Sequence record: NC_023693.1
DNA from: Escherichia phage phi92
Strand: one strand, 5' to 3'
DNA: 64,000 nt
Shown piece by piece: positions 14,701-51,938 of this stretch. The position numbers and the translations under genes are program-made. The notes beneath the pieces are model-generated. The model was not told the DNA's origin, did not search any database, and saw only the letters and a program-made list of their open reading frames with translations. Positions within the stretch are counted from its first letter, which is position 1; every line of letters begins with the position of its first letter.

Positions 14701-15037
14701 CAACTACTTTGGTAATTTTATAGTTTGAATTACCTTTAAATTTACCTGTTCCATTTACAAAATCAGGAAAATCTTTAAGAGGGAAATGGGTATATTCTAA
14801 ATGCTCATATTCCTCCAGTCGGTATTCATACTTTCCGTCAGTCTCAACATACGGACGACCATCGAAAAGATATTTATCACCATCATGGAAAGCAATAATC
14901 TCTCCAGTATCATGACTTTCGCACACAATACAGTGCATTGCAAAACTATCTTTTAAACGATATGGACTTGCCAAGTAATCTACACTTTCGTCATTAAGCA
15001 AGTTGTTACTTTCAATGTCGAAAGTAAAAGCTCCCAT
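11723..15037 (-). CDS. family A DNA polymerase with 3'-5' exonuclease domain, interrupted by an intein
   Basis: Exo I FDIES; motif A DFDSLEAKI; motif B RSPAKSVKYGITYG; motif C YHDEAQLEV; in-frame insertion between motifs A and B. Confidence 0.8.
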   Translation of the reverse strand: MGAFTFDIESNNLLNDESVDYLASPYRLKDSFAMHCIVCESHDTGEIIAFHDGDKYLFDGRPYVETDGKYEYRLEEYEHLEYTHFPLKDFPDFVNGTGKFKGNSNYKITKVVGHNIINFDLLAIKLFFKLNYSIKYNTWGNSNIEICDTMILSKTLNPDRFGGHSLAELSKKAGGDVKIDFRKNIPETERFKTFAADMLYYCIYDNKANTAVFRYLMEEWGDYNKWSEPFNLEQRVADIITRQEHRGFAFNMKQAEDNIRDLDARMEACRLEAEPVLPPKPATKGYLKSFIPPKLQFKKNGEPSSNMIKFAEKHSGELVQKEDGWWLFALGKEFKLPIPAEEPICDPTVPATLDDTTHIKNWLVGLGWSPSEYKDKDITLKSGTKIKKDEAQMEKAIRDYVDQTLASNFCQDRCDHLECTPETLEWKLRDRIAKAKGRGVKVLTNPSFTKGQEKDICPNLEALGEKFPYATQIVQYLTYKHRRNSILGGGADWEEDEEDYDKGYLAAVRADGRIPTPAATCDAATSRMKHRLVANIPRVTSLYGYEMRNLFGVEVPKYFQIGYDFDSLEAKIESHYCVPMDAQALTRKGWVGYHDLQEGDEILGYNPETGLKEWTKVKGKVFYKNSKTFEIKGKSHTYRATADHRWYVNTRSTGNTYVPKVRTTAELCTGDNIICNAPFNMEQDQVNSLTSVQQGKWDVPWVERVVNMSHAERVAFLEGFLIADGYWHKHKQKPVWRWAQNPGELFEAALTASYLVHGGNISVAFNTKDQKVKVATLANRSHIPVQSLTIEEWGVEDVWCPQTELGTWVMRQKDCITITGNCWRYEQEPHEYCNALLLEKPNDVHTMMARRISDTIGRKFERSPAKSVKYGITYGAQAAKVAKTIGSDMYTGQLVYDAFWEAAKPLALLKERLHDFWVKTGKKYILGIDGRKVPTRSAHAILNSLFQSGGVICAKRAMVIYDDLIEEEGLAVDFFVDDWKNKSFVQQMIAYHDEAQLEVTRDLVHFKWFSKESLGWTQVDDPEEQKKIDKECLDKVNAWKEEEEKRTGKIWANVHESPKGGWFTAYSRAGELASIAVNKAGEYYNLNVPLTAGYDVGSSWSTCH
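12575..13309 (-). other. intein inside the DNA polymerase gene (boundaries approximate)
   Basis: Starts CVPMDAQALTRKGW after motif A, contains TADH block and LAGLIDADG-like FLEGFLIADGYW, ends ...ITITGN before CWRY; extein then resumes with NDVHT as in T7 polymerase GDIHT. Confidence 0.5.
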
Positions 15038-29913: not shown

Positions 29914-30630
29914 TTATTTCAGTTTGTAAACAATTACATTTAAACCTTTGTTCACTAGAGTTTCTTCGATCATAAGTTTTACAATATTCCAAGAACCTCC
30001 AGCCAAACCACAACCAAGCATTGGTAAACCTACAATTTTACCGCCTGAAGATACAACATCGTCTCCCATACTATCTAACGCATTGTAGATAGCTTCATAA
30101 TTCAGGTCACGCTTACCTTCCTCACGACGACTATAACCATATTGTCCATATAAATTATAAATTGTCAAATTGTTTTCTGTATACTTAGTAAACGTACCTA
30201 ATTTTTTATAATCACCACGTTTAGTGGCACAATCTGCTTTAAACGCACCAGGCCACTTGCTTTTAATTTTTGGTGCAATACCACTACCCATAGTGCAAAA
30301 ACAGTTACAGCAGTGTGCTATAGCGTCTATATCGCCTCTCTCGGCTGCTGCTAAAAGATCACCGTATACCTCAATGATACCTGCTGGATAACTTGTTACA
30401 ATTTCATCTTCCCAGTACATTTGCTCTACACCACCGATCAGTGCAAAGTTTTGTGTAATGCGATCATCAATATAATTAAGACCTGAAACATACACAGCAT
30501 ATTCATCCTGTGCTGTAATACCTTGTACACGAATTCTTAAGACACCATCTTTATCTGTTGCTACACGCCCAAAATCTTTTTCTGTAATATTGGTGATAGG
30601 ATCTCCGAAAGTCGTCACTTTATTAGACAT
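29914..30630 (-). CDS. macro-domain (ADP-ribose binding/hydrolase) protein
   Basis: GDIDAIAHCCNCFCTMGSGIAPKI and GLPMLGCGLAGGSW match macro-domain signature blocks; start set to ATG (MSNKV) with RBS aaagggga, 2 nt after the upstream stop. Confidence 0.5.
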   Translation of the reverse strand: MSNKVTTFGDPITNITEKDFGRVATDKDGVLRIRVQGITAQDEYAVYVSGLNYIDDRITQNFALIGGVEQMYWEDEIVTSYPAGIIEVYGDLLAAAERGDIDAIAHCCNCFCTMGSGIAPKIKSKWPGAFKADCATKRGDYKKLGTFTKYTENNLTIYNLYGQYGYSRREEGKRDLNYEAIYNALDSMGDDVVSSGGKIVGLPMLGCGLAGGSWNIVKLMIEETLVNKGLNVIVYKLK

Positions 30631-31480
30631 AATAATCCCCTTTAACATTAGATTTGTTGATAATGTTGCTTTCAAAAAATTGACGCAGGAAATCAAAGTT
30701 CTCTTTGTATTTTTCAATATTATTGTAACCTTCTGCAAGGCAACCAAAGAACAGTTGTTCTACATAATACAAAGGAAGTTGTGAAAGTGCAATTTTAAAA
30801 TCAACTTCGCTTTGACTCATTAGATACTTAATAGGACGAACCAAACATTTAGCATCAGTTTCTTGCTTAATCATTTTAATAAAAGCTGCCAGGTTATTGA
30901 TATAGTTGAAGTTAAGTGCAGCTTCGGTGTTGGCTTCTGTACCTTCATACTTTGCAAAGTACAGGAAAAACGTATCGTTTTCAACACCTTCTTTGTCTAA
31001 AATTTCAATAAGTTTTTCTTCGTGTGTACCTGTAATATTAACATCATCAATGAAAATCAGATTTTTATCGCCCCAAAAATCACGATTGATAGAGAAAGTA
31101 TCACCATCGATCAAAGCCTTACGATCTTCTTTGCTAAGAAATCCATAATCATTGATATAGCTCACTTTACGATGAACGATATCCCACTCTACTGCTTTAC
31201 CTCCTTTGATAGAGATTAGGTAGTTGAGGTGATCTACAAAATGTTCAGATAACACTGTAGCTGCATTTTTAACATAGTTATATGGAGATGGAATAACAAC
31301 AAAACTTTCATTTACCAGTCGTTCTTCATATTTAGAAAAGAAACTTTCAGCCAGAATGCGTCCCATTCTTTTTGCTGCCTGGTTGCTGCCAAACTTTAGT
31401 TTGGAATAATCTGCAATGTTAAATTTTGCTTCCTTCAGGTTAGTAAAAGTATTAGCAAAATGTTGAATTTGATTACGCAT
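30623..31480 (-). CDS. phosphoribosyltransferase-fold protein
   Basis: PRPP-binding-type motif NLIFIDDVNITGTHEE. Confidence 0.5.
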   Translation of the reverse strand: MRNQIQHFANTFTNLKEAKFNIADYSKLKFGSNQAAKRMGRILAESFFSKYEERLVNESFVVIPSPYNYVKNAATVLSEHFVDHLNYLISIKGGKAVEWDIVHRKVSYINDYGFLSKEDRKALIDGDTFSINRDFWGDKNLIFIDDVNITGTHEEKLIEILDKEGVENDTFFLYFAKYEGTEANTEAALNFNYINNLAAFIKMIKQETDAKCLVRPIKYLMSQSEVDFKIALSQLPLYYVEQLFFGCLAEGYNNIEKYKENFDFLRQFFESNIINKSNVKGDYYV

Positions 31481-32129
31481 TAATAAGTTCCTCTTTTTTA
31501 AGTTTAGCCAACAAGTCTTCTGGATTAATAATATGACAGAACTTCATCCCTATGTCAACAGCTTTTCCATCATAAATCAAACTATCTCCAACGTGTAAAA
31601 TCTCCTCTGGTGCGAGATCAAACGTTACCATTTCATCAAAAGAGAGTTTAAAAAACCTAGGATCTGGTTTACACAAGCAAAACTCATCAGAAAAATGCAT
31701 AAAGTCAAATGGTAATTTTGTCAAGCCAGAATATACAGCTAAGAAACTACCAGGTACAAAATTAGTATTGCTCTTAATACTCAAAGAGTAGGTTGAACTT
31801 AGCTCTTCCAACTTCTTGCAAAGTTCAGGATTCAAGGTTGGAGGATGTTTTATAAACATTGCTAAACAGTCTCTTTTTAACCCATCCACTTTATCAAGAT
31901 CAATGTTCAAACGAGTAGAAAGTGTTACCCAAGCATCCTTAGACGTTCCACAAATGCCTTTTTCTGCTTTTAAATCCAAGAGAGTTTTTACCTCTTTATA
32001 TACGGTAGCTGCTTCTACCTCAGAACAAGAGGCATACTCGGCAATAACCTTGTTGCGCTCTTCTGCATACAAAGGGTTAGCAGTAATAAGAGTATTCCAT
32101 ACATCAAAAGAAATATGCTTAACAGTCAT
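31473..32129 (-). CDS. HAD-superfamily hydrolase-like protein
   Basis: Motif I-like FDVWNTL (second Asp replaced), motif II SIKSNT, motif IV GDSLIYDGK; start set to ATG (MTVKHISF) after RBS ggagga. Confidence 0.5.
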   Translation of the reverse strand: MTVKHISFDVWNTLITANPLYAEERNKVIAEYASCSEVEAATVYKEVKTLLDLKAEKGICGTSKDAWVTLSTRLNIDLDKVDGLKRDCLAMFIKHPPTLNPELCKKLEELSSTYSLSIKSNTNFVPGSFLAVYSGLTKLPFDFMHFSDEFCLCKPDPRFFKLSFDEMVTFDLAPEEILHVGDSLIYDGKAVDIGMKFCHIINPEDLLAKLKKEELINA

Positions 32130-32131
32130 TT

Positions 32132-32287
32132 TTAATCCTCCGTCCAAAAGAATATCATCTGCTTAATTTTATTGATTTCTTGATGTAGTAACTTTCCAGC
32201 ATGTGATTGATCTTTAATATTGACAGCAAGAATTTCAAGTTCCGTTAGTTTTTCTTGGATAGCTTTATATTCATCATCTGTAAGCAT
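32132..32287 (-). CDS. small hypothetical protein (51 aa)
   Basis: ATG with RBS aagggga; in-frame stop overlaps RBS of the HAD gene; below track size cut-off. Confidence 0.35.
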   Translation of the reverse strand: MLTDDEYKAIQEKLTELEILAVNIKDQSHAGKLLHQEINKIKQMIFFWTED

Positions 32288-32502: not shown

Positions 32503-32509
32503 ATAAATA

Positions 32510-32528
32510 AAGGAGGCTTTCGCCTCCT
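32510..32528 (-). terminator. terminator hairpin
   Basis: GGAGGC-TTTC-GCCTCC with flanking A/T runs, downstream of the ATPase gene. Confidence 0.45.
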
Positions 32529-32536
32529 TTTATCAC

Positions 32537-33697
32537 TTAGTAAGAACGAGCACCAAACACATACTCTGTGTAGTTTTTACGTTCTTTGTTTTTAATAACA
32601 ACTTCAATGTTGTTGCCTTTATCATCGGTGAACACAAAGTGATAACCGTCACCACCCATTGTACGGATGTGTTTTTCATCATACGTCAGCAAGATACGGT
32701 CTACACCCCAGTAGTAGTCACCTTCTTCATCTTTGTCTTCTACTGTAACGACCCCTTCCATTTCAGGAAGATGTTCTTCTCCTAGCTTATGGTCTACAGC
32801 TACAACATAACGATTACCGCTAAACAAACCCTGTGCTGTCATACCGTCAATATCGGTATCTGCCGAAACATCTCCTGTACGATCTACACCGTTGACTTTC
32901 AGAAGTTTAACTTCTTTTGCAGCATAGCGGTGTTCAGTAATACTGATACCCATTAATGCAAGTGCATCAGAGAATTTGTCATTAGGGTAACGGTTAAGTT
33001 CTTCTACTAATGACTGAACAATATCAAAGTTCAAGTCCACGGAAAGATTATAAAGCGTTTCAAAATCTGGTAAAAAGGCTTTGTTCTCCAGATTTTTAGC
33101 CAGATAGTCATCCATAGTAGCTTTAGGTAGTTTCTTATAGCTAAAGCTGTAGAAAATACGGCTAGGACGATTACGCAAAAATTCTGATACATAACCATCG
33201 TTTTTAGTCAATACAAACAGCTTGTCGTAGCCACCTACACCATCCAGCAGGGTAAGCAAGCCATCCTGTGCATCTTTTTCAGCATACAGTTTATCAAATT
33301 CATCGATCATAATCATCACAGGTTGTGTGATTTTAGACATAAAATTGATAAAGCCTTCGCCATTAAAAGCACTACCGATAGGAATAGTAGGAATACCCAT
33401 TTCACGAAGAGCAGAAGACAGCATTTTAGCTTGCAAAGTTTTACCGCTACCCTTCGTACCCTCAAGGAGAACACCTGTGTTTTTACCTTTGCGGCTAAGG
33501 AACGTCTTGATAATACGTTCTGATTTATCATCAGTATCACCGTATGTTACTGAAGGGACTTCCATATCGTTTTTAGGATACAGGAAGAACTCACCACTTT
33601 GAGTAACACCTACACCAAAAGTTCCTGCTGGAATTTCTTCAATATCTGTACCAGACTTCTGACGCAGGAAGATTTGATTGCCGAATACTGTAAACAT
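32537..33697 (-). CDS. P-loop ATPase (paralog of 48994-50121)
   Basis: Walker A GTKGSGKT, Walker B IMIDEFDKL; long collinear similarity to the + strand ATPase. Confidence 0.5.
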   Translation of the reverse strand: MFTVFGNQIFLRQKSGTDIEEIPAGTFGVGVTQSGEFFLYPKNDMEVPSVTYGDTDDKSERIIKTFLSRKGKNTGVLLEGTKGSGKTLQAKMLSSALREMGIPTIPIGSAFNGEGFINFMSKITQPVMIMIDEFDKLYAEKDAQDGLLTLLDGVGGYDKLFVLTKNDGYVSEFLRNRPSRIFYSFSYKKLPKATMDDYLAKNLENKAFLPDFETLYNLSVDLNFDIVQSLVEELNRYPNDKFSDALALMGISITEHRYAAKEVKLLKVNGVDRTGDVSADTDIDGMTAQGLFSGNRYVVAVDHKLGEEHLPEMEGVVTVEDKDEEGDYYWGVDRILLTYDEKHIRTMGGDGYHFVFTDDKGNNIEVVIKNKERKNYTEYVFGARSY

Positions 33698-33717
33698 AGT
33701 TTTCTCCTCTATTTAAT

Positions 33718-34188
33718 TTAGTCAGATTCCCAAATGTTGTCTTTCTTAATCCACATTCGTTGATTATCTGAACCTCTATAACGTTTCGTTGTTGGTTGAT
33801 TCATATCATACTTACCATCTATCACTATGTCAACCAGTTTTTTAATTTTTTCTGGAATTTCCTCAAAAAGATATCCTGTATATAAGACAATATCTTTTTT
33901 GTTTCCAAAACAATCTCTTACCTTCTCAAGAACATACTCTACAGTGTCAATGTTCTCTTTGTCAAGAGGTTCACCACCTAAAACTGTTAATCCTTTAATG
34001 AAAGGTCGAGATAAATCTTTCAAGATAAGATCTAATGTTTCAGTAGTGAACTCTTGTCCGTAGTTATACGACCAGGCTTTCTGGTTAAAGCAGCCACGGC
34101 AACCGTGGCTACAACCGCTCACCCACAAAGAGCATCTTACACCGTCACCGTTGAGCATGTCAACAGGTTCATATCCGGCGTAATTCAA
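33718..34188 (-). CDS. nrdG: anaerobic ribonucleotide reductase activating protein (radical SAM)
   Basis: CSHGCRGC radical-SAM cysteine cluster near N-terminus; 156 aa; adjacent to nrdD. Confidence 0.75.
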   Translation of the reverse strand: MNYAGYEPVDMLNGDGVRCSLWVSGCSHGCRGCFNQKAWSYNYGQEFTTETLDLILKDLSRPFIKGLTVLGGEPLDKENIDTVEYVLEKVRDCFGNKKDIVLYTGYLFEEIPEKIKKLVDIVIDGKYDMNQPTTKRYRGSDNQRMWIKKDNIWESD

Positions 34189-35164
34189 AAATGTTTCTCC
34201 CTTTCTAGTACCTCTTGCATTTTACCTTTATTATAAGGGCGAGAGTTAGGGGCAGAAAGGTATCCTGACACTCTTCTGATCACAGATATGGATTCTTCTT
34301 CATGATTACCGCAACTTGGACACTCGAAGCCTTTAGCCGTTGCTTTAAATTCACCATGAAAACCACATTTGAAACACTGATCTACAGGTTGGTTCACGCC
34401 AAAATAAGGAATTTTATTGTAGGCATAATCTACAAGAGTTTCCAGTGCTTGCAAGTTATTTTTAAGGTTTGGTGTTTCTACATAACCTATGTTCCCACCA
34501 TTACTAATTTGTGCAAAACCTTCCTCATAATCCCACTTTTGGAACGGGGTAGTGTGCATCCATACAGGTTGATGGAAAGAGTTTGTCAAGTAGTCACGAT
34601 CAATAGAACCAGGATAGCGATCATTTAACGCTTTGGCAAATTTATAGCACAAGGATTCTGCTGGTGTTCCATACAAACTAAAAGCTAAACCAGAACGTTC
34701 TTTAAATGTGCCACAGATATCCTTCATATATTGAAGGATGTTTTTACCCATTGCTTTTGGATTGGTGTTACCTGGGTATAAAATCTCCATAGCTTCTGCT
34801 AAACCTACATAACCGATACTAATAGAGGCATAACCACCTTCGAATAGTTTACCAATCTCTTCATTAGCTTCTAATCGAGCTAAAGCCCCTTCCATAAACA
34901 ATGTAGGGTTTTGAGATGCTTTGGTATGTCTAATACGGTTAACACGTAGCATATGTGCCTTATACGCCATCTCCATATGTTGTTCCAACAGTTCAGTAAA
35001 TAAGATGCCCTTTTCACGGGACTCTGCTGCAATGATAGGTAAGTTTAAAGAAACTACGCCTAAGTTGAAACGACCATCATATTTTTCACCTTGCTCTGTT
35101 GCATAGTATGACAAGAAACTTCTACACATTATGTTCAAAGTGGCTCGCAAGGCCACTCCCGCAC
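34185..35164 (-). CDS. nrdD: anaerobic ribonucleoside-triphosphate reductase, exon 2
   Basis: Glycyl-radical region RRVSGYL and C-terminal CFKCG...CPSCG zinc site; frame open upstream of the track start into the intron. Confidence 0.7.
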
Positions 35165-35398
35165 CATTACGTGCTGCTGCATGTCACCATGCAGATCAGA
35201 CTATATCTTCATGCTTAAAGCATGTCTACCATTTGGGGTGTCATAGGCTTACACCCTACGCTGCTACATTCATCACAGCTAGTCGTTAGGCATTTCGTAA
35301 CAGTACCCCCTTCTTCTGTGTTGGGAGTTCTGTTACGTTTAGCACGGGATTGTCTCGTTGAGAGTTCCCCCGTTTAGGCAGATTTTACATGAGCAGTT
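35165..35398 (-). ncRNA. group I intron (T4 td/nrdD-like), ORF-less; splice sites approximate
   Basis: About 235 nt interrupt nrdD; - strand reads ...TCTGCCTAAACGGGGGAACTCTCAACGAGACAATCCCGTGCTAAAC... closely resembling the conserved core of the T4 td intron as recalled from memory. Confidence 0.6.
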
Positions 35399-36263
35399 AT
35401 AGTTTACCCATGCTTGTGACGCGACCATCTGAAGATCCTGTAACTTCTTTGTTTAAAGGTACAGAGATAAAATCAGGATAAATGCGTTCAGCACAACACT
35501 CCATTGCCAGTTGCTTCAAATCATAGTTTGGATCGCCAGCTTTCATGTTAACACCATCTTCCAAGAAGAAGATAACTTTAGGAAACACAGGAGTTACCCT
35601 ATCTTTTCCTAATCCTTGTTTGTGCACCATTAGGTAGTTTTTAGTGATCATTCTACCAAAAGCAGAGGTATCCAAACCTAAACTAATTGTTATAAAAGGT
35701 GACTGACCATTTACACTCATTAGAGTGTTCACCTGGTAGATTAAAGTTTGCATTGCATCATAGACCTGTTTATCTACCATACGCATAGCAATATCATAAT
35801 CGCCAACATCGGCATATATTTTATTAAAACTTGCTTTAACGTATTGACTAAGCCCAGTATCAACATGTGCACAAGTTTGTCCACCATATTGGCTAGAAGC
35901 TACTGCTTGAATAATTTGAGTTAGGACAGTAGTCGCTACACCGATAGATTTTGGTTTTTCAATATGTGCATTACCAATACGGAAACCGTTCTCAAGCATA
36001 TCTTGGTAATTTACCAGGCAACAATTAGTTAAAGGTGAGAGTAAATAATCTAAATCGTGAATGTGACCATACCCACTTTTATGCCATTCTGCCAGATCTT
36101 CCGGTAAAATATGGGTCATTGCCATGTGCTTGCTTAGGATACCTGCTAGTAAATCTCGGTGAGTATTAACAATCATTGCAGGTTTGTTTGCATTTTCACG
36201 AGTAAATTCTTCGGATGTTTGTTCGAGGAATCCGATTACATCCTCATATAGTTTTTGGGTCAT
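35399..36263 (-). CDS. nrdD: anaerobic ribonucleoside-triphosphate reductase, exon 1
   Basis: 288 aa N-terminal portion ending a few codons into the intron; contiguous in function with exon 2. Confidence 0.7.
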
Positions 36264-38598: not shown

Positions 38599-41373
38599 TT
38601 AGTTTACCAGTTTATTTATATCGGGTAAAAGATTTATTTCACCTAAAAAATCACCTTCACCTTCCTCTAACCAACTCTCATATGCTTGTGCATGATTATA
38701 GTTACCATCAAAAGAATCTGCAACAAATTTTTCTACAGTTTTTCGAGATGTGCCAGCGCCAAATACACCAAGTTTAATACCATTGATCGGTAAAGTGGTG
38801 CTTGTTGGTACTTTCTCTGTTGCAACACGGTTGATATCTATAATCTCCTGTACGGTTGTGTTCCATTGTAAGCATTTAACACAACGGGTATGCGCTACAT
38901 ACAGTAGGTTTCGCTCTGCCTCTTCCAGTCCTACCCATTCACCAGTCTTTTTATCATAGTTGGAAGGAAAATCATTAGCAACAATAACCTGATCCCACTC
39001 CAAACCTTTAGACTTGTGTGCTGTAGTCAGTGTGACTTTTGCTGTAGGAGAATTTCTATGCGTTCTAAGTGTATGTGCTATAGTGTTCGCCTTACCAGAA
39101 ACTACGATGTTTAACAAGCGTTTAGCATCTGGATCAGCCTCTGCACACTCAACAAATTCATTCCAATCTGCGTAAGGTAATACAGTTTCATGTTTTACTT
39201 TCTCAATATCTCCTCTCCGAAGAGCATTAACACTATCTACCATAGAGATAAAATCCCTGGTATCTACGTTAATAATAATTTCTTCCCCATTTGCAATACG
39301 ATCCATTGCCTCCATAAGCAAGGTTAAATTCTTGCGAAAGATGATAGTGTAAGGTTTTGTATAGTCTACAACATCTGATTTGTAGCTACCTACTACAGTA
39401 TCAAAGCCTTTACCAACCAAAGGATGACGCAAAGGTTCTTTATCGCTTAAAATCATATTGGCAATGTTTGCCACTTTGGGGCCAAAACGGAAGCAAGCAG
39501 TTAATGGAAGCTCTGCCCCATACTTAGCTGTTTCAATCATCATATTAGAGCTACCTCTAAATTGATAAATGCAGTTGTGGCTAAGAATTTCATTGCCAAA
39601 GAAGTTAGCAGTATCCTCTACTTCAATATCATAATAGATACCCTCACTATCTACAATGTCCACAATCTCTTCTGCCGTTACAGTATCACCATCTTTTACC
39701 AACACAGACATGCCTTTAAACAAACCCGCTGCCGGAATTAAGTTATATTTGGCAGTGTCTACAGAGGACATGCATTCTTTTAAAGATGCAAACGGAACTA
39801 TTTCAAGGATCTTTTGTGCAAAACTCAATGCTTCACGATAAGAATTGAAATACTTACGTACACGGTAACGACCTTCCAATTTAGCAACACTTACGCTTAC
39901 ACCTGCTTTAATGAGTGAAGCATAGATCGGCATTTCACTTTCTGTCCACTCAAAACTGACTTGTGTTCCTTTACAACCTTGTGCTCGCAAAGTCACTGTT
40001 AACATTTTTCTTTCATCTACTGCACAATTGATGCTGTGCCAATGTGGATAAGCAAAATGATAGTCTTTATCCTCTAAAAGTTTAAAACCATTCTGTCCGA
40101 ATTGTTCAAAGATGTTATTGATCCTTTCTTGATTAATGCCGCGTGAACTTGCTTCAAATACACAAGTAGGAATGCCATATTGTAAACTGTATGCCATTTC
40201 TTTTTCCATAGCAGCTTCGCGATTTTCAACAATGTCCAACACCCATAATTTCTGTGCTTTTTCAGAACGTGTACGTTGCCCCAGTTTAGAAAAACCTTCT
40301 TTATCATCGAATTTGTTAGTGATCCCTACTCGGAAACCTAAATCTTTCCTCCACATTAGGTATACCACCATCTGGTCATCTTTCAGAACATAGGATGAAG
40401 CCCAAATACGATGGTTATGTGTCATATCTAAAGTTTTACCTGTAGCAGTAATAATATTCCTACCTTTTGTACGTGTAGATAAAGTTTTATTTGTTACTTT
40501 TCTAAATGTAACTTTACCATTAGAATAAGACTCTACCTTATCACCGATTTGCAGGTCTTTCATTGTAACCTGACCATTCTCGGTGTTAAGTACCGTGTTT
40601 TCCGACACACATTGGAATTCATCGCCCACTACCACAATTTGTTTTGCAGATTTAGCATTTCGCAGAATAGACAAGAATGCAGGGTTAACATCCTGGAATT
40701 CATCACCAAAAATAATATCATAACCAAGATCAGCACCAGACAATTCAAACAATTTTACATAGGTGTCATGCGTCATCAAAGTATCTGTATTAGGATCAAT
40801 GCGCTCTCGCCACAATTGTTTTGCATACTTAACTACTTCTGTAATTAGTTTGTGTTCGTTAATACCTTTTCTTTTAATATCTGCAAGATGTACACTAGGA
40901 AAATGTTTACGGCTGATAAAAGGATCATCCGAAAATTCAAACTTACCTACGGTTTGCTTGATCATTAAACCGATCATAGCACGAGTTAAAAGTGTTTTCC
41001 CTCGTTTATCAATAAGATTATTAATCTTAAATTTCTTTGCTATCTCGCTACCTGTACCTGCAACGTTAACATACTGTCCTTCTGGTCGTGACAGTTTTGC
41101 ACGTAAACGATGATCCAGGAATTGATAGCAAATAGAATGCAATGTACGGCATTCTACATTTAGTGGCATCTTACGTCGTGCTTCTTCTGCCATGCTTTTA
41201 TTGAAAGCTAAGTAAAGAATGCGATCTTCTGTACTGTTAGCCAGCAAATAAAGTGTTGACGTTTTGCCTGATCCAGATTTAGCTTGGATAGTTAAAAAGC
41301 GATGGTCTGGAAAAGCCTCCTTAATAGCTGTTTGCTCTTCTGTTGGAGTGAAGCTCAAATCTTTCTTAGCCAT
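38599..41373 (-). CDS. UvrD/Rep-like SF1 DNA helicase interrupted by an intein
   Basis: Walker A AKSGSGKT, motif II GDEFQDVN, motif III split as VVGDEFQ / CIYQFRGSS; start set to ATG (MAKKDL) with RBS agagagg. Confidence 0.75.
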   Translation of the reverse strand: MAKKDLSFTPTEEQTAIKEAFPDHRFLTIQAKSGSGKTSTLYLLANSTEDRILYLAFNKSMAEEARRKMPLNVECRTLHSICYQFLDHRLRAKLSRPEGQYVNVAGTGSEIAKKFKINNLIDKRGKTLLTRAMIGLMIKQTVGKFEFSDDPFISRKHFPSVHLADIKRKGINEHKLITEVVKYAKQLWRERIDPNTDTLMTHDTYVKLFELSGADLGYDIIFGDEFQDVNPAFLSILRNAKSAKQIVVVGDEFQCVSENTVLNTENGQVTMKDLQIGDKVESYSNGKVTFRKVTNKTLSTRTKGRNIITATGKTLDMTHNHRIWASSYVLKDDQMVVYLMWRKDLGFRVGITNKFDDKEGFSKLGQRTRSEKAQKLWVLDIVENREAAMEKEMAYSLQYGIPTCVFEASSRGINQERINNIFEQFGQNGFKLLEDKDYHFAYPHWHSINCAVDERKMLTVTLRAQGCKGTQVSFEWTESEMPIYASLIKAGVSVSVAKLEGRYRVRKYFNSYREALSFAQKILEIVPFASLKECMSSVDTAKYNLIPAAGLFKGMSVLVKDGDTVTAEEIVDIVDSEGIYYDIEVEDTANFFGNEILSHNCIYQFRGSSNMMIETAKYGAELPLTACFRFGPKVANIANMILSDKEPLRHPLVGKGFDTVVGSYKSDVVDYTKPYTIIFRKNLTLLMEAMDRIANGEEIIINVDTRDFISMVDSVNALRRGDIEKVKHETVLPYADWNEFVECAEADPDAKRLLNIVVSGKANTIAHTLRTHRNSPTAKVTLTTAHKSKGLEWDQVIVANDFPSNYDKKTGEWVGLEEAERNLLYVAHTRCVKCLQWNTTVQEIIDINRVATEKVPTSTTLPINGIKLGVFGAGTSRKTVEKFVADSFDGNYNHAQAYESWLEEGEGDFLGEINLLPDINKLVN
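39574..40611 (-). other. intein (about 346 aa) inside helicase motif III
   Basis: Begins CVSENTVLNTENGQVT right after GDEFQ, ends ...NEILSHN directly before CIYQFRG. Confidence 0.6.
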
Positions 41374-41374
41374 T

Positions 41375-41851
41375 TCAACCTCTCTTAATTTGTTTAACAA
41401 GCATAGGAACAAAATCTCGTTTTAAAATTTGTTCAATAATATGATCAGGTAGCTGTTGGAAATTATAATTAAAAGCTACTGTCTCACCTTTAGGTGTTTC
41501 TACCCGCACATATAACATGTTACGAAGTTTATCCACTTGTGCTGTATATTCTAAACCATGTAATTGATGTATTGCAAACATCAAATCGTCAGTTTCAGTT
41601 TGGAATCTATCACTTCCTTGCATCAAGGACAAGGTAAAAGGTAGATTTTCCCTAAGAGCCACCTTCTTAGGCACTAGTGAAGGGAAATACTCCCCAATAA
41701 CTTCCTGTGTAAGCTGAATACACTCTTTTTCAAGCTGGTTTTGTTCCTTGAGTTCACAAACACTTTTTTGTAAAGTGTTAACCTCTTTTTGCAAAGCTGC
41801 TAGTTGAGCACTTAACTTTCTTTTTTGATTACGACCAAAACGTTTAGACAT
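41375..41851 (-). CDS. hypothetical protein
   Basis: 158 aa ORF, N-terminal coiled coil. Confidence 0.4.
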   Translation of the reverse strand: MSKRFGRNQKRKLSAQLAALQKEVNTLQKSVCELKEQNQLEKECIQLTQEVIGEYFPSLVPKKVALRENLPFTLSLMQGSDRFQTETDDLMFAIHQLHGLEYTAQVDKLRNMLYVRVETPKGETVAFNYNFQQLPDHIIEQILKRDFVPMLVKQIKRG

Positions 41852-48543: not shown

Positions 48544-48981
48544 ATGAGTAAAACAAACGCAATCGCAGATAAAGCAACTGATGTACTTCTGAACATGGTT
48601 AACGTCACTATTCAAACAATGAGTGATGTTGTAGAGTTTGGAAAACAACAAATTCCAGAAGTAATCCATCAATTATTAGTGTGGAAAGCAGTATCCGCAG
48701 GTTTATGGCAACTTTTTAGTATTTGCTTTATGTTTATTACTTTTATTGCTGTGCGGAACATCGTAAAAGCAATTAAAGATAAAGAATGCCTGTGGTCACG
48801 AGATCGCTATGGTGAAGTATCTGCTTTACCTATTGTTGGTCTTGTTGTCTGTGCTTTCTTTTTCTTTTTAGGATTTGTTATTTTCTTTTCGAATTTTGAT
48901 TGGCTAAAAATCATTATTGCACCAAAAGTGTATCTGATTGAATTTGCTGCTGATTTAATTCGTTCATCTCAACAAAGATAA
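48544..48981 (+). CDS. membrane protein
   Basis: 145 aa with three hydrophobic segments; RBS gaggaa. Confidence 0.4.
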   Translation: MSKTNAIADKATDVLLNMVNVTIQTMSDVVEFGKQQIPEVIHQLLVWKAVSAGLWQLFSICFMFITFIAVRNIVKAIKDKECLWSRDRYGEVSALPIVGLVVCAFFFFLGFVIFFSNFDWLKIIIAPKVYLIEFAADLIRSSQQR

Positions 48982-48993
48982 AAAGGGGTTAAA

Positions 48994-50121
48994 ATGAAAT
49001 ACACGATTTATGGTGATATTGTAAGTGTAAATAAAGATATGGGCGTGGAATCTAACTATCTTCCACCTGGATTCTATACTGTTAGTCGTGATCCCCTTGG
49101 CAATTATTTTTTAAGCCGTGGTAATCTAACAGGTGTACCGGATGTTCTGTATGGTGAAACAGAAAAACGAGCAAATCACGTTATTCGTACATTCCATCGC
49201 CGGAGTGCACAAGGTAAAAATACAGGCTTGCTTCTGACAGGAACTAAGGGCAGTGGTAAAACTATGTTAGCCAAGCTCATTAGTCGTGACCTTGTAGAAG
49301 AAGGTATTCCAACTATTATGGTTACTCAAGCCTACAGTGATGCTAATTTCATTGAACTTATTAGCAAGATCACCGACAAAGCAGTAATTATTTTTGACGA
49401 ATTTGATAAAGTATACGAGAAGAAACAAGATCAAGAAGCACTTCTCACTTTGTTAGACGGTACTGGTAGTGGTAATAAACTGTTTATTTTGACTAAAAAC
49501 AGTGGTTTTATCTCGGAATTCTTTTTAAATCGTCCTAGTCGTGTGTTTTATAATTTTAATTATGATAAAATCTCACTAGAAACCATGATTGACTATTTAG
49601 ATAAAAACCTGGATAACAAAGCACACTTTGATAATTTCCAAAGACTTTGGGATGTAAGTTTAGAGTTGTCCTTTGATGTGATCCAAGGTATAGTAGAAGA
49701 ACTTAATTTCTACCCTGATTTATCCTTTAAAGAATGCATCTCTATGATGGGTGTTTCTTTAGGTGGTGGTAATAAATGGGATATCAGCAGCGTTGTTATT
49801 AATGGAAAACTTCAGAAAGTTAGCTGGGTATCTAGTTGGCATAACTTTACACCTGCAATCTTTTTAGGTGGCTCGTGCACACTAGACGTGTACTTGTCAT
49901 CTCCAAGTGATGCAGATTCTAAAGAAGCCCTTGCTAATAGCTCTTACGTGGTTTTTGATGATGAAGGCGATGCTCGAATTCCATTGAACGCAACAAAAAT
50001 GAAAGCAGATCTTATTACAGGCGGTAAAATCGTTGTGTTTAGTGATGATCCAGAAGATTCTTTCCGTATTGTTCTGGAACCAACTATCACCAATGGTGCA
50101 ACTTTGGCAAGCGTGTTTTAA
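48994..50121 (+). CDS. P-loop ATPase (paralog of 32537-33697)
   Basis: Walker A GTKGSGKT, Walker B IIFDEFDKV; collinear similarity to the - strand ATPase over most of its length. Confidence 0.5.
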   Translation: MKYTIYGDIVSVNKDMGVESNYLPPGFYTVSRDPLGNYFLSRGNLTGVPDVLYGETEKRANHVIRTFHRRSAQGKNTGLLLTGTKGSGKTMLAKLISRDLVEEGIPTIMVTQAYSDANFIELISKITDKAVIIFDEFDKVYEKKQDQEALLTLLDGTGSGNKLFILTKNSGFISEFFLNRPSRVFYNFNYDKISLETMIDYLDKNLDNKAHFDNFQRLWDVSLELSFDVIQGIVEELNFYPDLSFKECISMMGVSLGGGNKWDISSVVINGKLQKVSWVSSWHNFTPAIFLGGSCTLDVYLSSPSDADSKEALANSSYVVFDDEGDARIPLNATKMKADLITGGKIVVFSDDPEDSFRIVLEPTITNGATLASVF

Positions 50122-50135
50122 GTAAGCCAGCAAAT

Positions 50136-50160
50136 AAAAACCCGCTTCGGCGGGTTTTCT
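50136..50160 (+). terminator. rho-independent terminator
   Basis: AAAAACCCGC-TTCG-GCGGGTTTTCT. Confidence 0.55.
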
Positions 50161-50195
50161 TGCATTAATGCCAGATTTAATAAGAGGAGTAGTAG

Positions 50196-51386
50196 ATGGC
50201 AGCACCAAAATCATGGGAACAATATAAAGAAGAGTGTCAACCAATAGCAGAGAGTAAGCAAATCCAAATCTTAGGATGGACGGGAGAATGGAAAGGGAAC
50301 AAGACTAAACTTAAGCTATCTTGCTCTGATCATGGAGAGTGGAACACCACGAACATTAATGATTTTAAGAATGGACGTGGTTGTCCGGCATGTACAAGTA
50401 ATAAGTCGTTAACATGGGAAACAGAATTGCCGATCTTAGAAGAGATAGCACAGAAGAAGGGGTATCAAGTGTTAGGGTACGTTGGAGAATGGAAAGGGGT
50501 TAATACAAAACTTGATTTGTTGTGTCATTGTGGGAATAGATGGCAAAGTACAATTATTAAGACATTTAAACGTGTAAATGGTTGTCCACAGTGTAGAATA
50601 GAGAAGGTAAAGCAAGCCAGTACGAAGTCAGATGATGAAAGGATCGCCTCTTTCCTTGCTAAGCGGGATTATCCAGAAGGAACTATCTTTAAACGATCTG
50701 ATCGGACTACCTTGCAAGGTCGTGCAGTTTATTGGTTTGTGTATTGCCCTATCTGTGCACAAGATGAAATAACGAAAGCTGGGTTATGTAGTGGATGGTT
50801 TGAAAGTACAGCAGGGGATTTGCAAAAAGGGACTGCCGCTTGTCGTTGTAGTAAGTCCCCTAAATACACAGACGATCAGAATACATTCCGTGCAATGAAG
50901 GTATGCGAGGATAACGGTTATCAGTTTGTTGGTTGGGTTGATAAGGTAGGAACACAGTCTAAGTTTAAATATCTGTGTCCAGAACACGGGGTACAAATTA
51001 TAACATTGGGTAGTATGGTTAGGGGTCATGGATGCCCTGAATGTGCTGGTAATAGTCAACAGCAATTATATATTAACATTGTTAAAGATAATGATATTAC
51101 CGTTGCTCTTAAGTTTGGCATAGCTAAAGATAGCGACAGGCGATTAAACAGTCAAAATAGCCGTAATCTGTTTTTTATGGAGCGTATTTGTTTATATGAT
51201 TTTAGTACAGTGAAACAATGTAAGGCTACTGAAAGAGCTATAAAGAAAAAATTAAAAACTGGTATTTTAACGGCAAGAGAGTTGAAAGACGGTTATACAG
51301 AAACAGTAAGTGTTTCTGATTTGGAAAATCTTCAAAAAATTATTACACAATATGGTGGCAAATTGGTATATAGTAAGGAGGTGTAA
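50196..51386 (+). CDS. zinc-ribbon repeat protein with C-terminal T5orf172 (GIY-YIG-like) domain
   Basis: Repeated units GW.GEWKG..TKL.L.C..HG.W...GCP.C; C-terminal LYINIVK...ALKFGIAKDSDRRLNSQN. Confidence 0.5.
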   Translation: MAAPKSWEQYKEECQPIAESKQIQILGWTGEWKGNKTKLKLSCSDHGEWNTTNINDFKNGRGCPACTSNKSLTWETELPILEEIAQKKGYQVLGYVGEWKGVNTKLDLLCHCGNRWQSTIIKTFKRVNGCPQCRIEKVKQASTKSDDERIASFLAKRDYPEGTIFKRSDRTTLQGRAVYWFVYCPICAQDEITKAGLCSGWFESTAGDLQKGTAACRCSKSPKYTDDQNTFRAMKVCEDNGYQFVGWVDKVGTQSKFKYLCPEHGVQIITLGSMVRGHGCPECAGNSQQQLYINIVKDNDITVALKFGIAKDSDRRLNSQNSRNLFFMERICLYDFSTVKQCKATERAIKKKLKTGILTARELKDGYTETVSVSDLENLQKIITQYGGKLVYSKEV

Positions 51387-51938
51387 ATGCGGATTACTGA
51401 TAAGTATGTGTTCTTCTTCTCGGCAAAAGATGAATTTAGCAACTGGTATCTATCATCTTTTATTGAACCTTTAGCACCCAAGTATAATAACTCTATTACA
51501 AGTTCTGTTGAATTTACTTGTGTGGAACAATATATGATGTGGAGAAAAGCATGTTTGTTTTATGATTACAATATTGCATCTTCTATTTTAATCGGAGATC
51601 TCAGATATACAGGAGAAAAAGAACAAGCATATTATAAGCGACTAGGTAGATTAGTTAAAGATTATGATGAAGACACCTGGACTTCTTTACGGGAGAAGAT
51701 TGTCAAACGTGGTTTGTATCTTAAATACACACAAAATGAAGATCTCAAAAATAAACTTATCGCTTACGCAGATAAGGAGTTCGTAGAGGCAAGCCCCTAT
51801 GATTCTATTTATGGTATCAAAATGGGGATGTGGGATCGGGACGTGGAAAATAAGGATTGTTGGAAAGGACAAAATCTTTTAGGAAAATGGCATACAGACC
51901 TTGCTGTTTATCTAAAAACACAATCTGATATTTCCTGA
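51387..51938 (+). CDS. NADAR (YbiA-like) domain protein
   Basis: FFFSAKDEFSNWYLSSF, EQYMMWRKA and EASPYDSIYGIKMG blocks match NADAR signature positions; RBS aaggagg. Confidence 0.5.
   Translation: MRITDKYVFFFSAKDEFSNWYLSSFIEPLAPKYNNSITSSVEFTCVEQYMMWRKACLFYDYNIASSILIGDLRYTGEKEQAYYKRLGRLVKDYDEDTWTSLREKIVKRGLYLKYTQNEDLKNKLIAYADKEFVEASPYDSIYGIKMGMWDRDVENKDCWKGQNLLGKWHTDLAVYLKTQSDIS

What the first reader, a model, noticed from the sequence alone, without database searches (positions are those of the whole stretch)
32537..33697. Two diverged copies of the same P-loop ATPase on opposite strands, 15 kb apart
The - strand ATPase (32537-33697, next to nrdG) and the + strand ATPase (48994-50121) share Walker A GTKGSGKT, Walker B (I/M)IDEFDK and collinear blocks such as LLTLLDG, LTKN.G..SEF..NRPSR.FY and IVEELN.YP across nearly their whole length. 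They diverge at the C-terminus. Retained paralogs in opposite transcription units suggest sub-functionalised roles, for example early versus middle expression.
Basis: seen in the sequence. Interest (0 to 1): 0.55.

Follow-up and report, generated by a model that had tools for sequence, protein, structure and literature searches.

The report
Two old AAA ATPase paralogs, phi92-like phage
A phi92-like E. coli phage carries two intact, long-diverged copies of a phage-specific AAA+ ATPase of unknown function that share a conserved motor but have very different tail domains; both genes are already annotated as "ATPase" in about 50 published relatives, so the finding is real but fairly ordinary.

Summary
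ORFs 32537-33697(-) and 48994-50121(+) encode proteins of 386 and 375 aa. They are 47% identical over the first ~254 residues (BLASTP E=2e-81). The C-terminal ~125 aa are about 15% identical but still align collinearly at profile level.

The window is a Justusliebigvirus (phi92-like) phage. Copy 2 is Phi92_gp221. Both genes are annotated "ATPase" in public genomes, and both match PHROG 2376 over their full length.

Each protein has three parts: a small N-terminal beta domain, an AAA core, and an acidic, lineage-restricted beta-rich C-domain. The core has Walker A/B, sensor-1 Asn and a classical-AAA-type RPxR motif, but short pore loops. The nearest structures are Bcs1, NSF-D2 and p97.

Both genes are under strong purifying selection, and each is followed by a stable terminator hairpin. 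The split is old: third codon positions are near saturation, and single-copy phage lineages branch between the two copies. Copy 2 is the positional ortholog of the single Phapecoctavirus gene. Copy 1 sits in the replication and nucleotide-metabolism module.

Sub-functionalisation is plausible, more likely through the C-domain than through timing alone, but expression timing and function are untested. Interest is low to moderate.

The parts
32537..33697 (-). Copy 1: AAA+ ATPase, 386 aa, the last gene of the nrdD-nrdG-ATPase unit. It lies between nrdG and the Phi92_gp189 homolog.
   Evidence: ORF; PF00004 27.2 bits against a cut-off of 21.2; PHROG 2376 E=4e-104, aa 1-376; annotated 'ATPase' in Nernie, PD06 and PATM; AF2 model with pLDDT 83.
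33536..33697 (-). Copy 1 N-terminal beta domain (aa 1-54), five strands.
   Evidence: DSSP on the AF2 model; no significant Pfam hit; G6, P23, G25, L39, P48, Y52 and G53 are conserved family-wide.
32939..33535 (-). Copy 1 AAA core plus four-helix lid (aa 55-253). Walker A lies at 33437-33460, Walker B at 33290-33313, and sensor-1 N166 through R177-P178-x-R180 at 33158-33202.
32540..32938 (-). Copy 1 C-terminal beta-rich acidic domain (aa 254-386, net charge -10). This is the fast-evolving part.
   Evidence: 45-50% identity among copy 1 orthologs, against 86-89% for the rest of the protein. 15 of the 22 differences between the window and phage Nernie in a 2.5-kb stretch fall in 32550-32918. No Pfam or PDB sequence match. 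Charge.
33703..33708 (-). Shine-Dalgarno sequence GAGGAG, 5 nt upstream of the copy 1 ATG.
   Evidence: Read directly from the sequence.
32509..32530 (-). Terminator-like hairpin plus U-rich tail, 6 nt after the copy 1 stop codon.
   Evidence: Scan; fold -16.7 kcal/mol, z=-4.7; annotated as a terminator in phage PATM.
36283..36305 (-). Terminator-like hairpin just upstream of nrdD. It marks the 5' boundary of the nrdD-nrdG-copy 1 block.
   Evidence: Scan; fold -14 kcal/mol, z=-5.4; PATM TERM_011.
33718..34188 (-). nrdG (anaerobic RNR activase), the upstream neighbour of copy 1.
   Evidence: ORF with a CxxxCxxC motif; annotation in relatives. The adjacency is not conserved in Klebsiella phage FKP3.
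48994..50121 (+). Copy 2: AAA+ ATPase, 375 aa, equal to Phi92_gp221. It is the last gene of a short + strand operon that starts at the divergent intergenic region near 47.4-47.5 kb.
   Evidence: ORF; PF00004 38.9 bits; PHROG 2376 E=7e-108, aa 1-367; note 'Phi92_gp221' in the PD06 record; AF2 model with pLDDT 84.
48994..49158 (+). Copy 2 N-terminal beta domain (aa 1-55).
   Evidence: DSSP on the model; no Pfam hit.
49159..49761 (+). Copy 2 AAA core plus lid (aa 56-256). Walker A lies at 49240-49263, Walker B at 49387-49410, and sensor-1 N169 through R180-P181-x-R183 at 49498-49542.
49762..50118 (+). Copy 2 C-terminal beta-rich acidic domain (aa 257-375, net charge -6).
   Evidence: 51-60% identity among copy 2 orthologs, against 80-84% for the rest of the protein. 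A profile of this domain finds only this ATPase lineage among 1.84 billion representatives.
50136..50162 (+). Intrinsic terminator (AAAAACCCGC-TTCG-GCGGGTTTTC) starting 15 nt after the copy 2 stop codon.
   Evidence: Sequence; fold -17.8 kcal/mol, z=-5.2; PATM TERM_012.

Best explanation
Shown: the two genes are full-length, intact, ancient paralogs of a phage-restricted AAA+ ATPase family (PHROG 2376).

Each protein has three parts:
- A small N-terminal beta domain.
- An AAA core with all catalytic elements: Walker A, Walker B, a sensor-1 Asn and a classical-AAA-type RPxR arginine motif. Both pore-loop regions are short.
- An acidic beta-rich C-terminal domain, found by sequence only in this phage lineage, that evolves several times faster than the motor.

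Copy 2 (Phi92_gp221) occupies the ancestral locus shared with Phapecoctavirus. Copy 1 sits in the helicase, nucleotide-metabolism and replication block, at a position also kept in a distant metagenomic relative.

Inferred: each protein forms an ATP-driven oligomeric ring that remodels, assembles or disassembles a protein partner. It probably does not thread its substrate the way ClpX does, and more likely works as Bcs1 or NSF do. The conserved N-domain and motor would provide the same chemistry in both copies. The divergent C-domain would set the partner, so the paralogs are sub-functionalised mainly by target and secondarily by the operon that expresses them. The substrates are unknown.
For: Paralogy: BLASTP E=2e-81. 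Both proteins match PHROG 2376 end to end. The C-domains are linked by hhalign and by a collinear alignment.

Catalytic competence of both copies: 26 invariant columns, including G/G/G/K (Walker A), D/E (Walker B), the sensor-1 N and R-P-x-R, are kept in both.

Clade:
- PF00004 is the only Pfam family that copy 1 matches above its cut-off, and the strongest match for both copies; copy 2 also just clears the cut-offs of nSTAND3, RNA_helicase and AAA_5.
- The family profile against PDB returns only Cdc48/p97, NSF, VAT, Rix7, AFG2, Pex1 and Msp1, at E down to 1e-11, with NRPSRI aligned on LRPGRL.

Short pore loops: the beta2-alpha2 linker is 6 residues in the models. HMMER places 5- to 13-residue insertions in p97 at both pore-loop regions.

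A protein rather than a DNA partner: every domain is acidic (full-length pI 4.9; C-domain net charge -6 to -19 across the family).

Selection: window against Nernie, PD06 and PATM. Copy 2 has 13-20 synonymous and 0 nonsynonymous changes in the N+AAA part. Copy 1 has 0-1 nonsynonymous changes there. Copy 1's C-domain has dN/dS of about 0.07-0.2.

C-domain as the variable module: identity among copy 1 orthologs is 86-89% in the N+AAA part against 45-50% in the C-domain; for copy 2 orthologs the figures are 80-84% against 51-60%. There is a local divergence island exactly over copy 1's C-domain coding segment.

Age of the split: third-position identity is 38.7% and there are no long tracts of high nucleotide identity between the two genes. 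In NJ bootstraps the copy 1 lineage has 100% support, the copy 2 plus Phapecoctavirus lineage 99%, and copy 1 and copy 2 are never exclusive sisters (0/100).

Synteny.

Separate transcription units, each with its own terminator.
Against: - No experiment or paper addresses this family.
- Short pore loops also fit switch-type or loader-type AAA+ proteins.
- Oligomeric state, ATPase activity, partners and expression timing were not testable with these tools.
- No conserved neighbouring gene was found that could name a partner.
- In several distant phages the homolog sits in a replication module, which fits the rival explanation.
Confidence: 0.5

Rival explanations
1. Both proteins are DNA-replication accessory switches: helicase-loader, clamp-loader or initiator-helper type AAA+ proteins. 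Copy 1 would serve the phage replisome and copy 2 a second DNA transaction.
For: - There are weak sub-threshold matches to Hda (E=4e-7), DnaC-type PRK08116 (2e-6), IstB and DnaI, and to the PHROG 'clamp loader' (1e-8) and 'DnaC-like helicase loader' (1e-6) families for copy 2.
- The beta2-alpha2 and post-Walker-B loops are short, as in the clamp-loader clade.
- Homologs lie between primase and exonuclease in a crAss-like phage.
- Homologs lie after DnaB, primase, RNase H and RecJ in a Staphylococcus Sextaecvirus.
- A homolog lies next to the helicase and DNA polymerase in an N4-like Acinetobacter phage.
- Copy 1 lies in the block that holds the helicase, nrd genes, primase-helicase and PolA.
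Against: - All those matches are far below the curated cut-offs (for example 29.8 bits against 194.8) and cover mainly the Walker A region.
- The beta2-alpha2 linker is only 6 residues, which leaves no room for an initiator-specific insertion, and the C-terminal domain is beta-rich rather than a helical collar.
- The arginine motif is RPxR, as in classical AAA proteins, not SRC.
- The whole protein is acidic with no basic domain.
- Copy 2, the Phapecoctavirus ortholog and the homologs in GAP32, 7-11-like phages, Lactococcus phages and Bacillus phages sit among small early-type genes or tRNAs, not replication genes.
Confidence: 0.25
2. The two paralogs co-assemble into one hetero-oligomeric ring, as Pex1/Pex6, RuvBL1/2 or Rpt1-6 do. 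They would then be two subunits of a single machine rather than two machines.
For: - The two copies co-occur in essentially all Justusliebigvirus genomes.
- Both keep every catalytic residue.
- The N-domain and motor are collinear, with only a single 2-aa indel between them.
Against: - Phapecoctavirus carries only one copy in every listed record, so a homo-oligomer suffices there. The P0041-type contig showed only one copy among the listed hits, but only 21 kb of it was read.
- The genes are in separate, oppositely oriented transcription units with their own terminators, which does not favour stoichiometric co-expression.
- The motors are only 47% identical.
Confidence: 0.1
3. One copy is a redundant or decaying duplicate with no function of its own.
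For: Nothing beyond the bare fact of duplication and the faster-evolving C-domain of copy 1.
Against: - Both ORFs are full length in every genome examined.
- Each has a good Shine-Dalgarno sequence.
- dN/dS is about 0 to 0.2, with 13-20 synonymous against 0-1 nonsynonymous changes in the motor.
- The pair has persisted long enough for third codon positions to approach saturation, and it also persists in the Klebsiella-infecting relatives, whose copy 1 is only 70-75% identical.
Confidence: 0.02

Closest known systems
PHROG 2376 'ATPase' (phage AAA ATPases such as Phi92_gp221, phAPEC8 'putative ATPase', GAP32_367 and Salmonella phage 7-11 ATPase)
   Same: Both copies match the profile end to end (E=1e-104 and 1e-108). 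Proteins 98-100% identical are already deposited and annotated 'ATPase'. BFVD shows that the same three-domain fold in jumbo, 7-11-like, Agrobacterium and Lactobacillus phages aligns over the full length.
   Different: Nothing differs structurally; these proteins are members of the family. The family itself has no known function. Some records call it 'ATPase or Zn metalloprotease' or 'FtsH-like protease', which is unsupported: there is no protease domain and no HExxH motif.
Classical AAA clade (Pfam PF00004: p97/Cdc48, NSF, FtsH, proteasomal Rpt, Vps4/spastin)
   Same: Walker A and B, a sensor-1 Asn, and a second region of homology with R-P-x-R that aligns on RPGR. PF00004 scores above the gathering threshold. 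The family profile hits p97/Cdc48 at E=1e-11.
   Different: Pore loop 1 has no aromatic-hydrophobic-Gly motif, and both pore-loop regions are 5-13 residues shorter. The protein has a single AAA module with unrelated N- and C-terminal beta domains.
Bcs1 (mitochondrial AAA translocase of folded Rieske protein) and NSF D2
   Different: There is no transmembrane segment and no Bcs1_N domain. Only the ~205-250-residue AAA core aligns. Sequence identity is 17-20%. A heptameric or hexameric state is untested.
Switch-type and loader-type AAA+ proteins (RFC/gamma clamp loaders, DnaC/IstB, Hda, Cdc6/Orc)
   Different: All matches are far below family cut-offs. The arginine motif is RPxR rather than SRC. 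No initiator-specific motif, helical collar or DNA-binding domain is present. The protein is acidic overall.
Paralogous AAA pairs with a shared motor and divergent accessory domains (Pex1/Pex6, Rpt1-6, RuvBL1/RuvBL2)
   Same: Ancient duplicates that keep the motor while their accessory domains diverge.
   Different: Those pairs form obligate hetero-rings. Here related phages manage with one copy, and the genes are in separate operons.

Membership tests
AAA+ / classical AAA (PF00004) | Walker A GxxGxGK[ST] | tested here: met
   GTKGSGKT at aa 80-87 (copy 1) and 83-90 (copy 2). G, G, G and K are invariant in 82 sequences.
AAA+ / classical AAA (PF00004) | Walker B hhhhDE | tested here: met
   IMIDEF and IIFDEF. 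D132/E133 and D135/E136 are invariant.
AAA+ / classical AAA (PF00004) | Sensor-1 polar residue at the end of beta4, and a second region of homology with arginine fingers (RPGR-like) | tested here: met
   LTKN with N166/N169 invariant. NRPSR with R177, P178 and R180 (copy 2: R180, P181, R183) invariant. HMMER aligns this stretch on p97 LRPGRL.
AAA+ / classical AAA (PF00004) | Pfam score above the curated gathering threshold | tested here: met
   27.2 and 38.9 bits against a cut-off of 21.2.
AAA+ / classical AAA (PF00004) | Pore loop 1 aromatic-hydrophobic-Gly motif. This is typical of substrate-threading members but not universal in the clade. | tested here: not met
   The beta2-alpha2 linker is 6 residues (GSAFNG in copy 1, TQAYSD in copy 2) in the AF2 models. 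p97 carries extra residues at both pore-loop regions in the profile alignment. A single aromatic residue (F110/Y113) remains.
AAA+ / classical AAA (PF00004) | Ring oligomer with ATP hydrolysis at subunit interfaces | not testable with these tools
   No multimer prediction or biochemistry was available. Only the trans-acting arginines are seen.
PHROG 2376 phage ATPase | Full-length match to the family profile | tested here: met
   E=4.1e-104 (aa 1-376 on profile positions 2-359 of 363) and E=6.6e-108 (aa 1-367 on positions 1-357 of 363).
Bcs1 family | N-terminal membrane anchor plus the Bcs1-specific domain preceding the AAA module | tested here: not met
   No Bcs1_N hit in Pfam. Foldseek alignments are no longer against full-length Bcs1 than against the isolated AAA domain. 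The N-terminal sequence has no hydrophobic segment.
Clamp loader (RFC / gamma-tau / gp44) | SRC arginine-finger motif, a helical C-terminal collar domain and a family-level profile score | tested here: not met
   The motif is RPSR, not SRC. The C-domain is beta-rich. NCBIfam RFC and DnaX scores are 12-13 bits against cut-offs of 250-303.
DnaC / IstB / DnaI helicase-loader clade | Initiator-specific helical insertion after beta2, and a family-level profile score | tested here: not met
   The beta2-alpha2 linker is only 6 residues. Scores are 20-27 bits against cut-offs of 189-232.
FtsH-like ATP-dependent Zn metalloprotease (an annotation carried by some relatives) | C-terminal M41 peptidase domain with HExxH | tested here: not met
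   No peptidase hit in Pfam on the whole proteins or on the C-domains. Neither sequence contains an HExxH motif (read directly).
Known anti-phage defence ATPases (PADLOC) | Significant match to a defence-system model | tested here: not met
   The best hits are mad8 (E about 1e-3, 16-17 bits), SspF and IetA. All are marginal and limited to the P-loop.

The most novel reading that the evidence does not exclude
The acidic, rapidly evolving C-terminal domain, which also appears to be exchanged by recombination, is a target-recognition module locked in an arms race. The two paralogs would be ATP-driven remodelers that each dismantle or sequester a different host factor, such as a DNA-binding defence or nucleoid protein. 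One would be deployed from the early small-gene operon and the other from the replication module. The wider family, found in crAss-like, N4-like, Herelleviridae, jumbo and phi92-like phages, would then be a widespread and unrecognised class of phage counter-defence or host-takeover motors.
Probability: 0.1. Interest if true: 0.7.

Novelty: new member of a known kind. Interest (0 to 1): 0.28.

Why it matters
The pair itself is not surprising. Both genes are already deposited and labelled 'ATPase' in about 50 phi92-like genomes, and AAA+ paralogs are common.

What has some value is the picture of the family. It is a phage-only, three-domain AAA ATPase that is conserved across very different virulent phages and has no known function.

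The two copies in one genome act as a natural experiment. They have the same motor and different C-domains, both are under purifying selection, and they sit in different operons. That makes domain-swap and single or double knockout experiments straightforward.

If the C-domain turns out to choose the target, the family could explain a conserved but unassigned step in infection by large lytic phages, including phages used for therapy against E. coli and Klebsiella.

Tried and rejected
- Fold search against AFDB50: the library was unavailable.
- Identity of the C-domain: a profile against PDB gave only marginal hits to cNMP-binding domains of PKA-R (E=0.09-0.9). Pfam found nothing on the isolated N- and C-domains. 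The C-domain profile against 1.84 billion representatives returned only this ATPase lineage, plus a few giant repetitive proteins that I regard as spurious.
- PADLOC and NCBIfam: only sub-threshold P-loop matches.
- Conserved neighbour or partner gene: the upstream genes in the window, ZCKP1, the P0041-type phage, Deep Blue, GAP32 and pSal-SNUABM-01 are unrelated. Only the downstream CapR/T5orf172 gene is shared with Phapecoctavirus, which shows synteny rather than a partner.
- Promoter evidence for timing: the sigma-70 scan found 63 sites against 64 expected by chance, so no promoter class is claimed.
- Recent gene conversion between the copies: none. The longest similar tract is 146 nt at 72% identity.
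- Foreign origin of one copy judged from base composition: GC is 39.4% and 37.0% against 37.8% for the window, so this is not informative.
- Literature: no functional, transcriptomic or essentiality data for this family or phage genus. The HIDEN-SEQ study covers a Vequintavirinae phage, not this group.
- Weak PDB sequence hits of the lid and linker region (aa 201-291) to the influenza NS1 effector domain (E about 1e-3): I judged these to be chance.
- Ancient duplication with differential loss versus lateral acquisition of copy 1 from a P0041-like relative: bootstrapped NJ could not separate the two (G1+G3 support 79%). No maximum-likelihood tree software was available.
Full report
**1. Observation**

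The two ORFs are real and lie at the stated coordinates. Copy 1 is 32537-33697 (-), 386 aa. Copy 2 is 48994-50121 (+), 375 aa.

BLASTP aligns aa 2-253 of copy 1 with aa 3-256 of copy 2 at 47% identity and 70% positives, with one 2-aa gap, E=2e-81.

Walker B is IMIDEFDK in copy 1 and IIFDEFDK in copy 2. The lid motif is LVEELNRYP in copy 1 and IVEELNFYP in copy 2.

The last 119-133 residues are only about 15% identical, but they are still homologous:
- They align collinearly. Shared landmarks are VNG near the start, an acidic D/E-rich turn, the stretch G-x-H/K-h-V-F, and the final strand h-E/R-h-V-h.
- hhalign of the two ortholog groups gives 75% probability, E=2.6e-5 over 109 columns.
- Both groups reach 96% probability against an intermediate group, P0041-46.
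- Both proteins match PHROG 2376 over their whole length.

**2. Which genome this is**

The window is 98-99% identical in nucleotide sequence to Escherichia phages Nernie, VEcB, alia and others of the genus Justusliebigvirus (phi92-like, Stephanstirmvirinae).

In those records both genes are annotated 'ATPase', or in some 'putative ATPase or Zn metalloprotease' or 'FtsH-like protease'. Copy 1 lies between nrdG and the Phi92_gp189 homolog.

**3. Anatomy**

AlphaFold2 models built from alignments of 82 and 78 sequences have mean pLDDT of 83 and 84. They show three parts:
- a five-strand N-terminal beta domain (aa 1 to about 45);
- an AAA alpha/beta core with a four-helix lid (aa about 55-250);
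- a beta-rich C-terminal domain (aa about 260-375).

Twenty-six columns are invariant across the family and are kept in both copies. They include the Walker A G/G/G/K, the Walker B D/E, the sensor-1 Asn, and R-P-x-R.

PF00004 is the strongest Pfam match for both copies, and the only family that copy 1 matches above its cut-off. A profile of the family finds Cdc48/p97, NSF, VAT, Rix7, AFG2, Pex1 and Msp1 in the PDB at E down to 1e-11, with NRPSRI aligned on p97 LRPGRL.

BFVD gives full-length matches (TM 0.6-0.8) only to other phage ATPases of unknown function.

The beta2-alpha2 linker, where pore loop 1 sits in threading AAA proteins, is 6 residues long and lacks the aromatic-hydrophobic-Gly motif. 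The segment after Walker B (pore loop 2) is also short.

All three domains are acidic. Full-length pI is 4.9, and the C-domain net charge is -6 to -19 across family groups.

The N- and C-domains have no significant Pfam or PDB sequence relatives. A profile of the C-domain found only this ATPase lineage among 1.84 billion representative proteins. There is no peptidase domain and no HExxH motif, so the 'Zn metalloprotease' and 'FtsH-like' labels are unfounded.

**4. Evolution**

tblastn against about 50,700 phage records finds two places per record in 64 records. These are essentially the E. coli Justusliebigvirus records (53 and 54 records with a match of at least 95% identity to copy 1 and copy 2), their Klebsiella-infecting relatives such as FKP3, and at least one unrelated case, Lactobacillus phage SAC12B. 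Every Phapecoctavirus record listed has a single copy, 64.5% identical to copy 2 and 43% identical to copy 1.

That single Phapecoctavirus gene shares its downstream CapR/T5orf172 neighbour with copy 2, so copy 2 is the positional ortholog.

The copy 1 locus runs UvrD-like helicase, YqeY-like gene, further genes, ATPase, further genes, then TerC/TelA. A metagenomic phage whose ATPase is only 57% identical to copy 1 keeps this arrangement. The adjacency to nrdG is not conserved in Klebsiella phage FKP3.

In a bootstrapped NJ tree of the N+AAA region:
- the ~150-kb-phage clade has 99% support;
- the copy 1 lineage has 100% support;
- the copy 2 plus Phapecoctavirus lineage has 99% support;
- copy 1 and copy 2 are never exclusive sisters (0/100);
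- the P0041-46 group, which appears to be single-copy, joins copy 1 in 79% of replicates.

Third codon positions are 38.7% identical, there are no long tracts of high nucleotide identity between the two genes, and both have the GC content of the rest of the window.

The split is therefore old. Either an ancient duplication was followed by differential loss, or copy 1 came laterally from a related phage. I could not decide between these.

**5. Selection**

I compared the window with Nernie, PD06 and PATM.
- Copy 2 has 13-20 synonymous and 0 nonsynonymous differences in the N+AAA part, and 0-1 nonsynonymous differences in the C-domain.
- Copy 1 has 0-1 nonsynonymous differences in the N+AAA part, and dN/dS of about 0.07-0.2 in the C-domain.

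Both genes are therefore functional.

Over longer distances the C-domain evolves several times faster than the motor in both lineages. Identity is 45-50% against 86-89% for copy 1 orthologs, and 51-60% against 80-84% for copy 2 orthologs.

Between the window and Nernie, 15 of the 22 differences in a 2.5-kb stretch fall in 32550-32918, which is the segment coding for the copy 1 C-domain. This suggests recombinational exchange of that module. It rests on a single genome pair.

**6. Expression context**

Both genes have good Shine-Dalgarno sequences. Each is followed within 6-15 nt by a stable hairpin with a U-rich tail (-16.7 and -17.8 kcal/mol, z about -5). The PATM annotators also marked these as terminators.

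Copy 1 is the last gene of a block made up of nrdD (interrupted by an intron), nrdG and the ATPase. Hairpins at 36305-36283 and 32530-32509 bound the block, which lies inside the long leftward replication and nucleotide-metabolism cluster.

Copy 2 is the last gene of a short rightward operon of small genes. The operon starts at the divergent intergenic region near 47.4-47.5 kb and includes a 145-aa protein with three predicted membrane helices.

This arrangement is compatible with different temporal classes but does not prove them. The promoter scan was at chance level, and I found no transcriptome for this phage group.

**7. Function**

No paper or database assigns a function.

My preferred reading is an oligomeric ATP-driven protein remodeler or assembly factor that does not thread its substrate in the canonical way. 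The shared N-domain and motor would do the work, and the acidic, fast-evolving C-domain would choose the partner. The paralogs would then differ mainly in target. I put this at about 0.5, with the sequence, structure and evolution parts shown and the mechanism inferred.

The main rival, at about 0.25, is a replication-accessory switch or loader.
- For it: weak matches to Hda, DnaC, IstB and RFC, and the replication-module context of homologs in crAss-like, Sextaecvirus and N4-like phages.
- Against it: the RPxR motif, the absence of initiator or collar features, the overall acidity, and the early-gene or tRNA context of many other homologs.

A hetero-ring made of both paralogs (about 0.1) is disfavoured because relatives carry a single copy and the genes are in separate operons. 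A decaying duplicate is excluded by the selection data.

**8. Verdict**

The genes are uncharacterised members of a known superfamily and of a catalogued phage family, and they are already present and annotated in public genomes. The paralogy is real and old but not remarkable. The conserved-motor, variable-C-domain architecture and the wide phage distribution of the family make it a reasonable but not urgent experimental target.

Noticed in passing
window 35177-35451 (-), between the nrdD ORF halves 34185-35156 and 35397-36263: The anaerobic ribonucleotide reductase gene nrdD is interrupted by a group I intron (Rfam RF00028, 70.6 bits against a gathering score of 50, E=8e-18, full model). Phages Nernie and PATM have an uninterrupted 1800-nt nrdD, whereas PD06 is split like the window. 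From memory, this resembles the T4 nrdD intron.
   Followed up: partly
window 11723-15037 (-), aa 577-821 of the family A DNA polymerase: The PolA ORF is 1104 aa against 859 aa in phage Nernie. The extra 245 aa begin with Cys (CVPMD...) and end ...ITGN, followed by Cys. These are typical intein boundaries, although Pfam did not flag an intein.
   Followed up: partly
window 38599-41412 (-): The UvrD-like helicase ORF is 937 aa against about 578 aa in Nernie and PATM. It carries Hint/intein splicing-domain matches at aa about 267-613 (sub-threshold individually: PF14890 32.5 bits against a cut-off of 35.8). PD06 has a similarly long version. Together with the nrdD intron and the PolA insert, that makes three self-splicing elements in this window.
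   Followed up: partly
window 51387-51938 (+): A NADAR-domain protein (PF08719, E=3e-36) lies two genes downstream of copy 2. From memory, NADAR proteins reverse DarT-type ADP-ribosylation of DNA, so this is a possible counter-defence gene.
   Followed up: no
window 50196-51386 (+): The gene immediately downstream of copy 2 has four CapR-homology repeats and a T5orf172 (GIY-YIG-like) domain, and relatives annotate it 'endonuclease'. It is conserved next to the single ATPase gene of Phapecoctavirus at 41% identity.
   Followed up: partly
window 29914-32147 (-): Downstream of copy 1 there is a run of a HAD-like hydrolase, a ComF-like PRTase_3 protein (E=6e-41) and a Macro-domain protein. TelA- and TerC-type genes lie further on in relatives. 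From memory, this resembles the Ter-linked PRTase/HAD 'nucleoside-like metabolite' gene sets described by comparative genomics.
   Followed up: no
GenBank MG065639, MG065645, MG065656, MG065689 (hits H4-H7, H105): Four records named 'Campylobacter phage' with host C. jejuni are 98.8% identical to this E. coli Justusliebigvirus region and carry both ATPase copies. The host or name assignment looks doubtful.
   Followed up: no
window 32550-32918 (-) against L001 (phage Nernie): There is a sharp local island of divergence. 15 of the 22 differences in 2.5 kb lie exactly in the segment coding for the copy 1 C-domain, while the rest of the gene is identical apart from one site. This suggests a recombination patch. 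Only one genome pair was examined at this resolution.
   Followed up: partly
C-domain alignment A3 (window 32540-32938 - and 49762-50118 +): The only PDB sequences that the C-domain profile touches are cAMP-binding domains of protein kinase A regulatory subunits. Several chains are hit at E=0.09-0.9 over profile positions about 59-111. This is not significant and could not be checked by a domain-only fold search.
   Followed up: no
window 48544-48981 (+): The gene immediately upstream of copy 2 encodes a 145-aa protein with three predicted hydrophobic helices. It has no Pfam match, and the genes upstream of the ATPase in the other phages examined are unrelated to it.
   Followed up: partly
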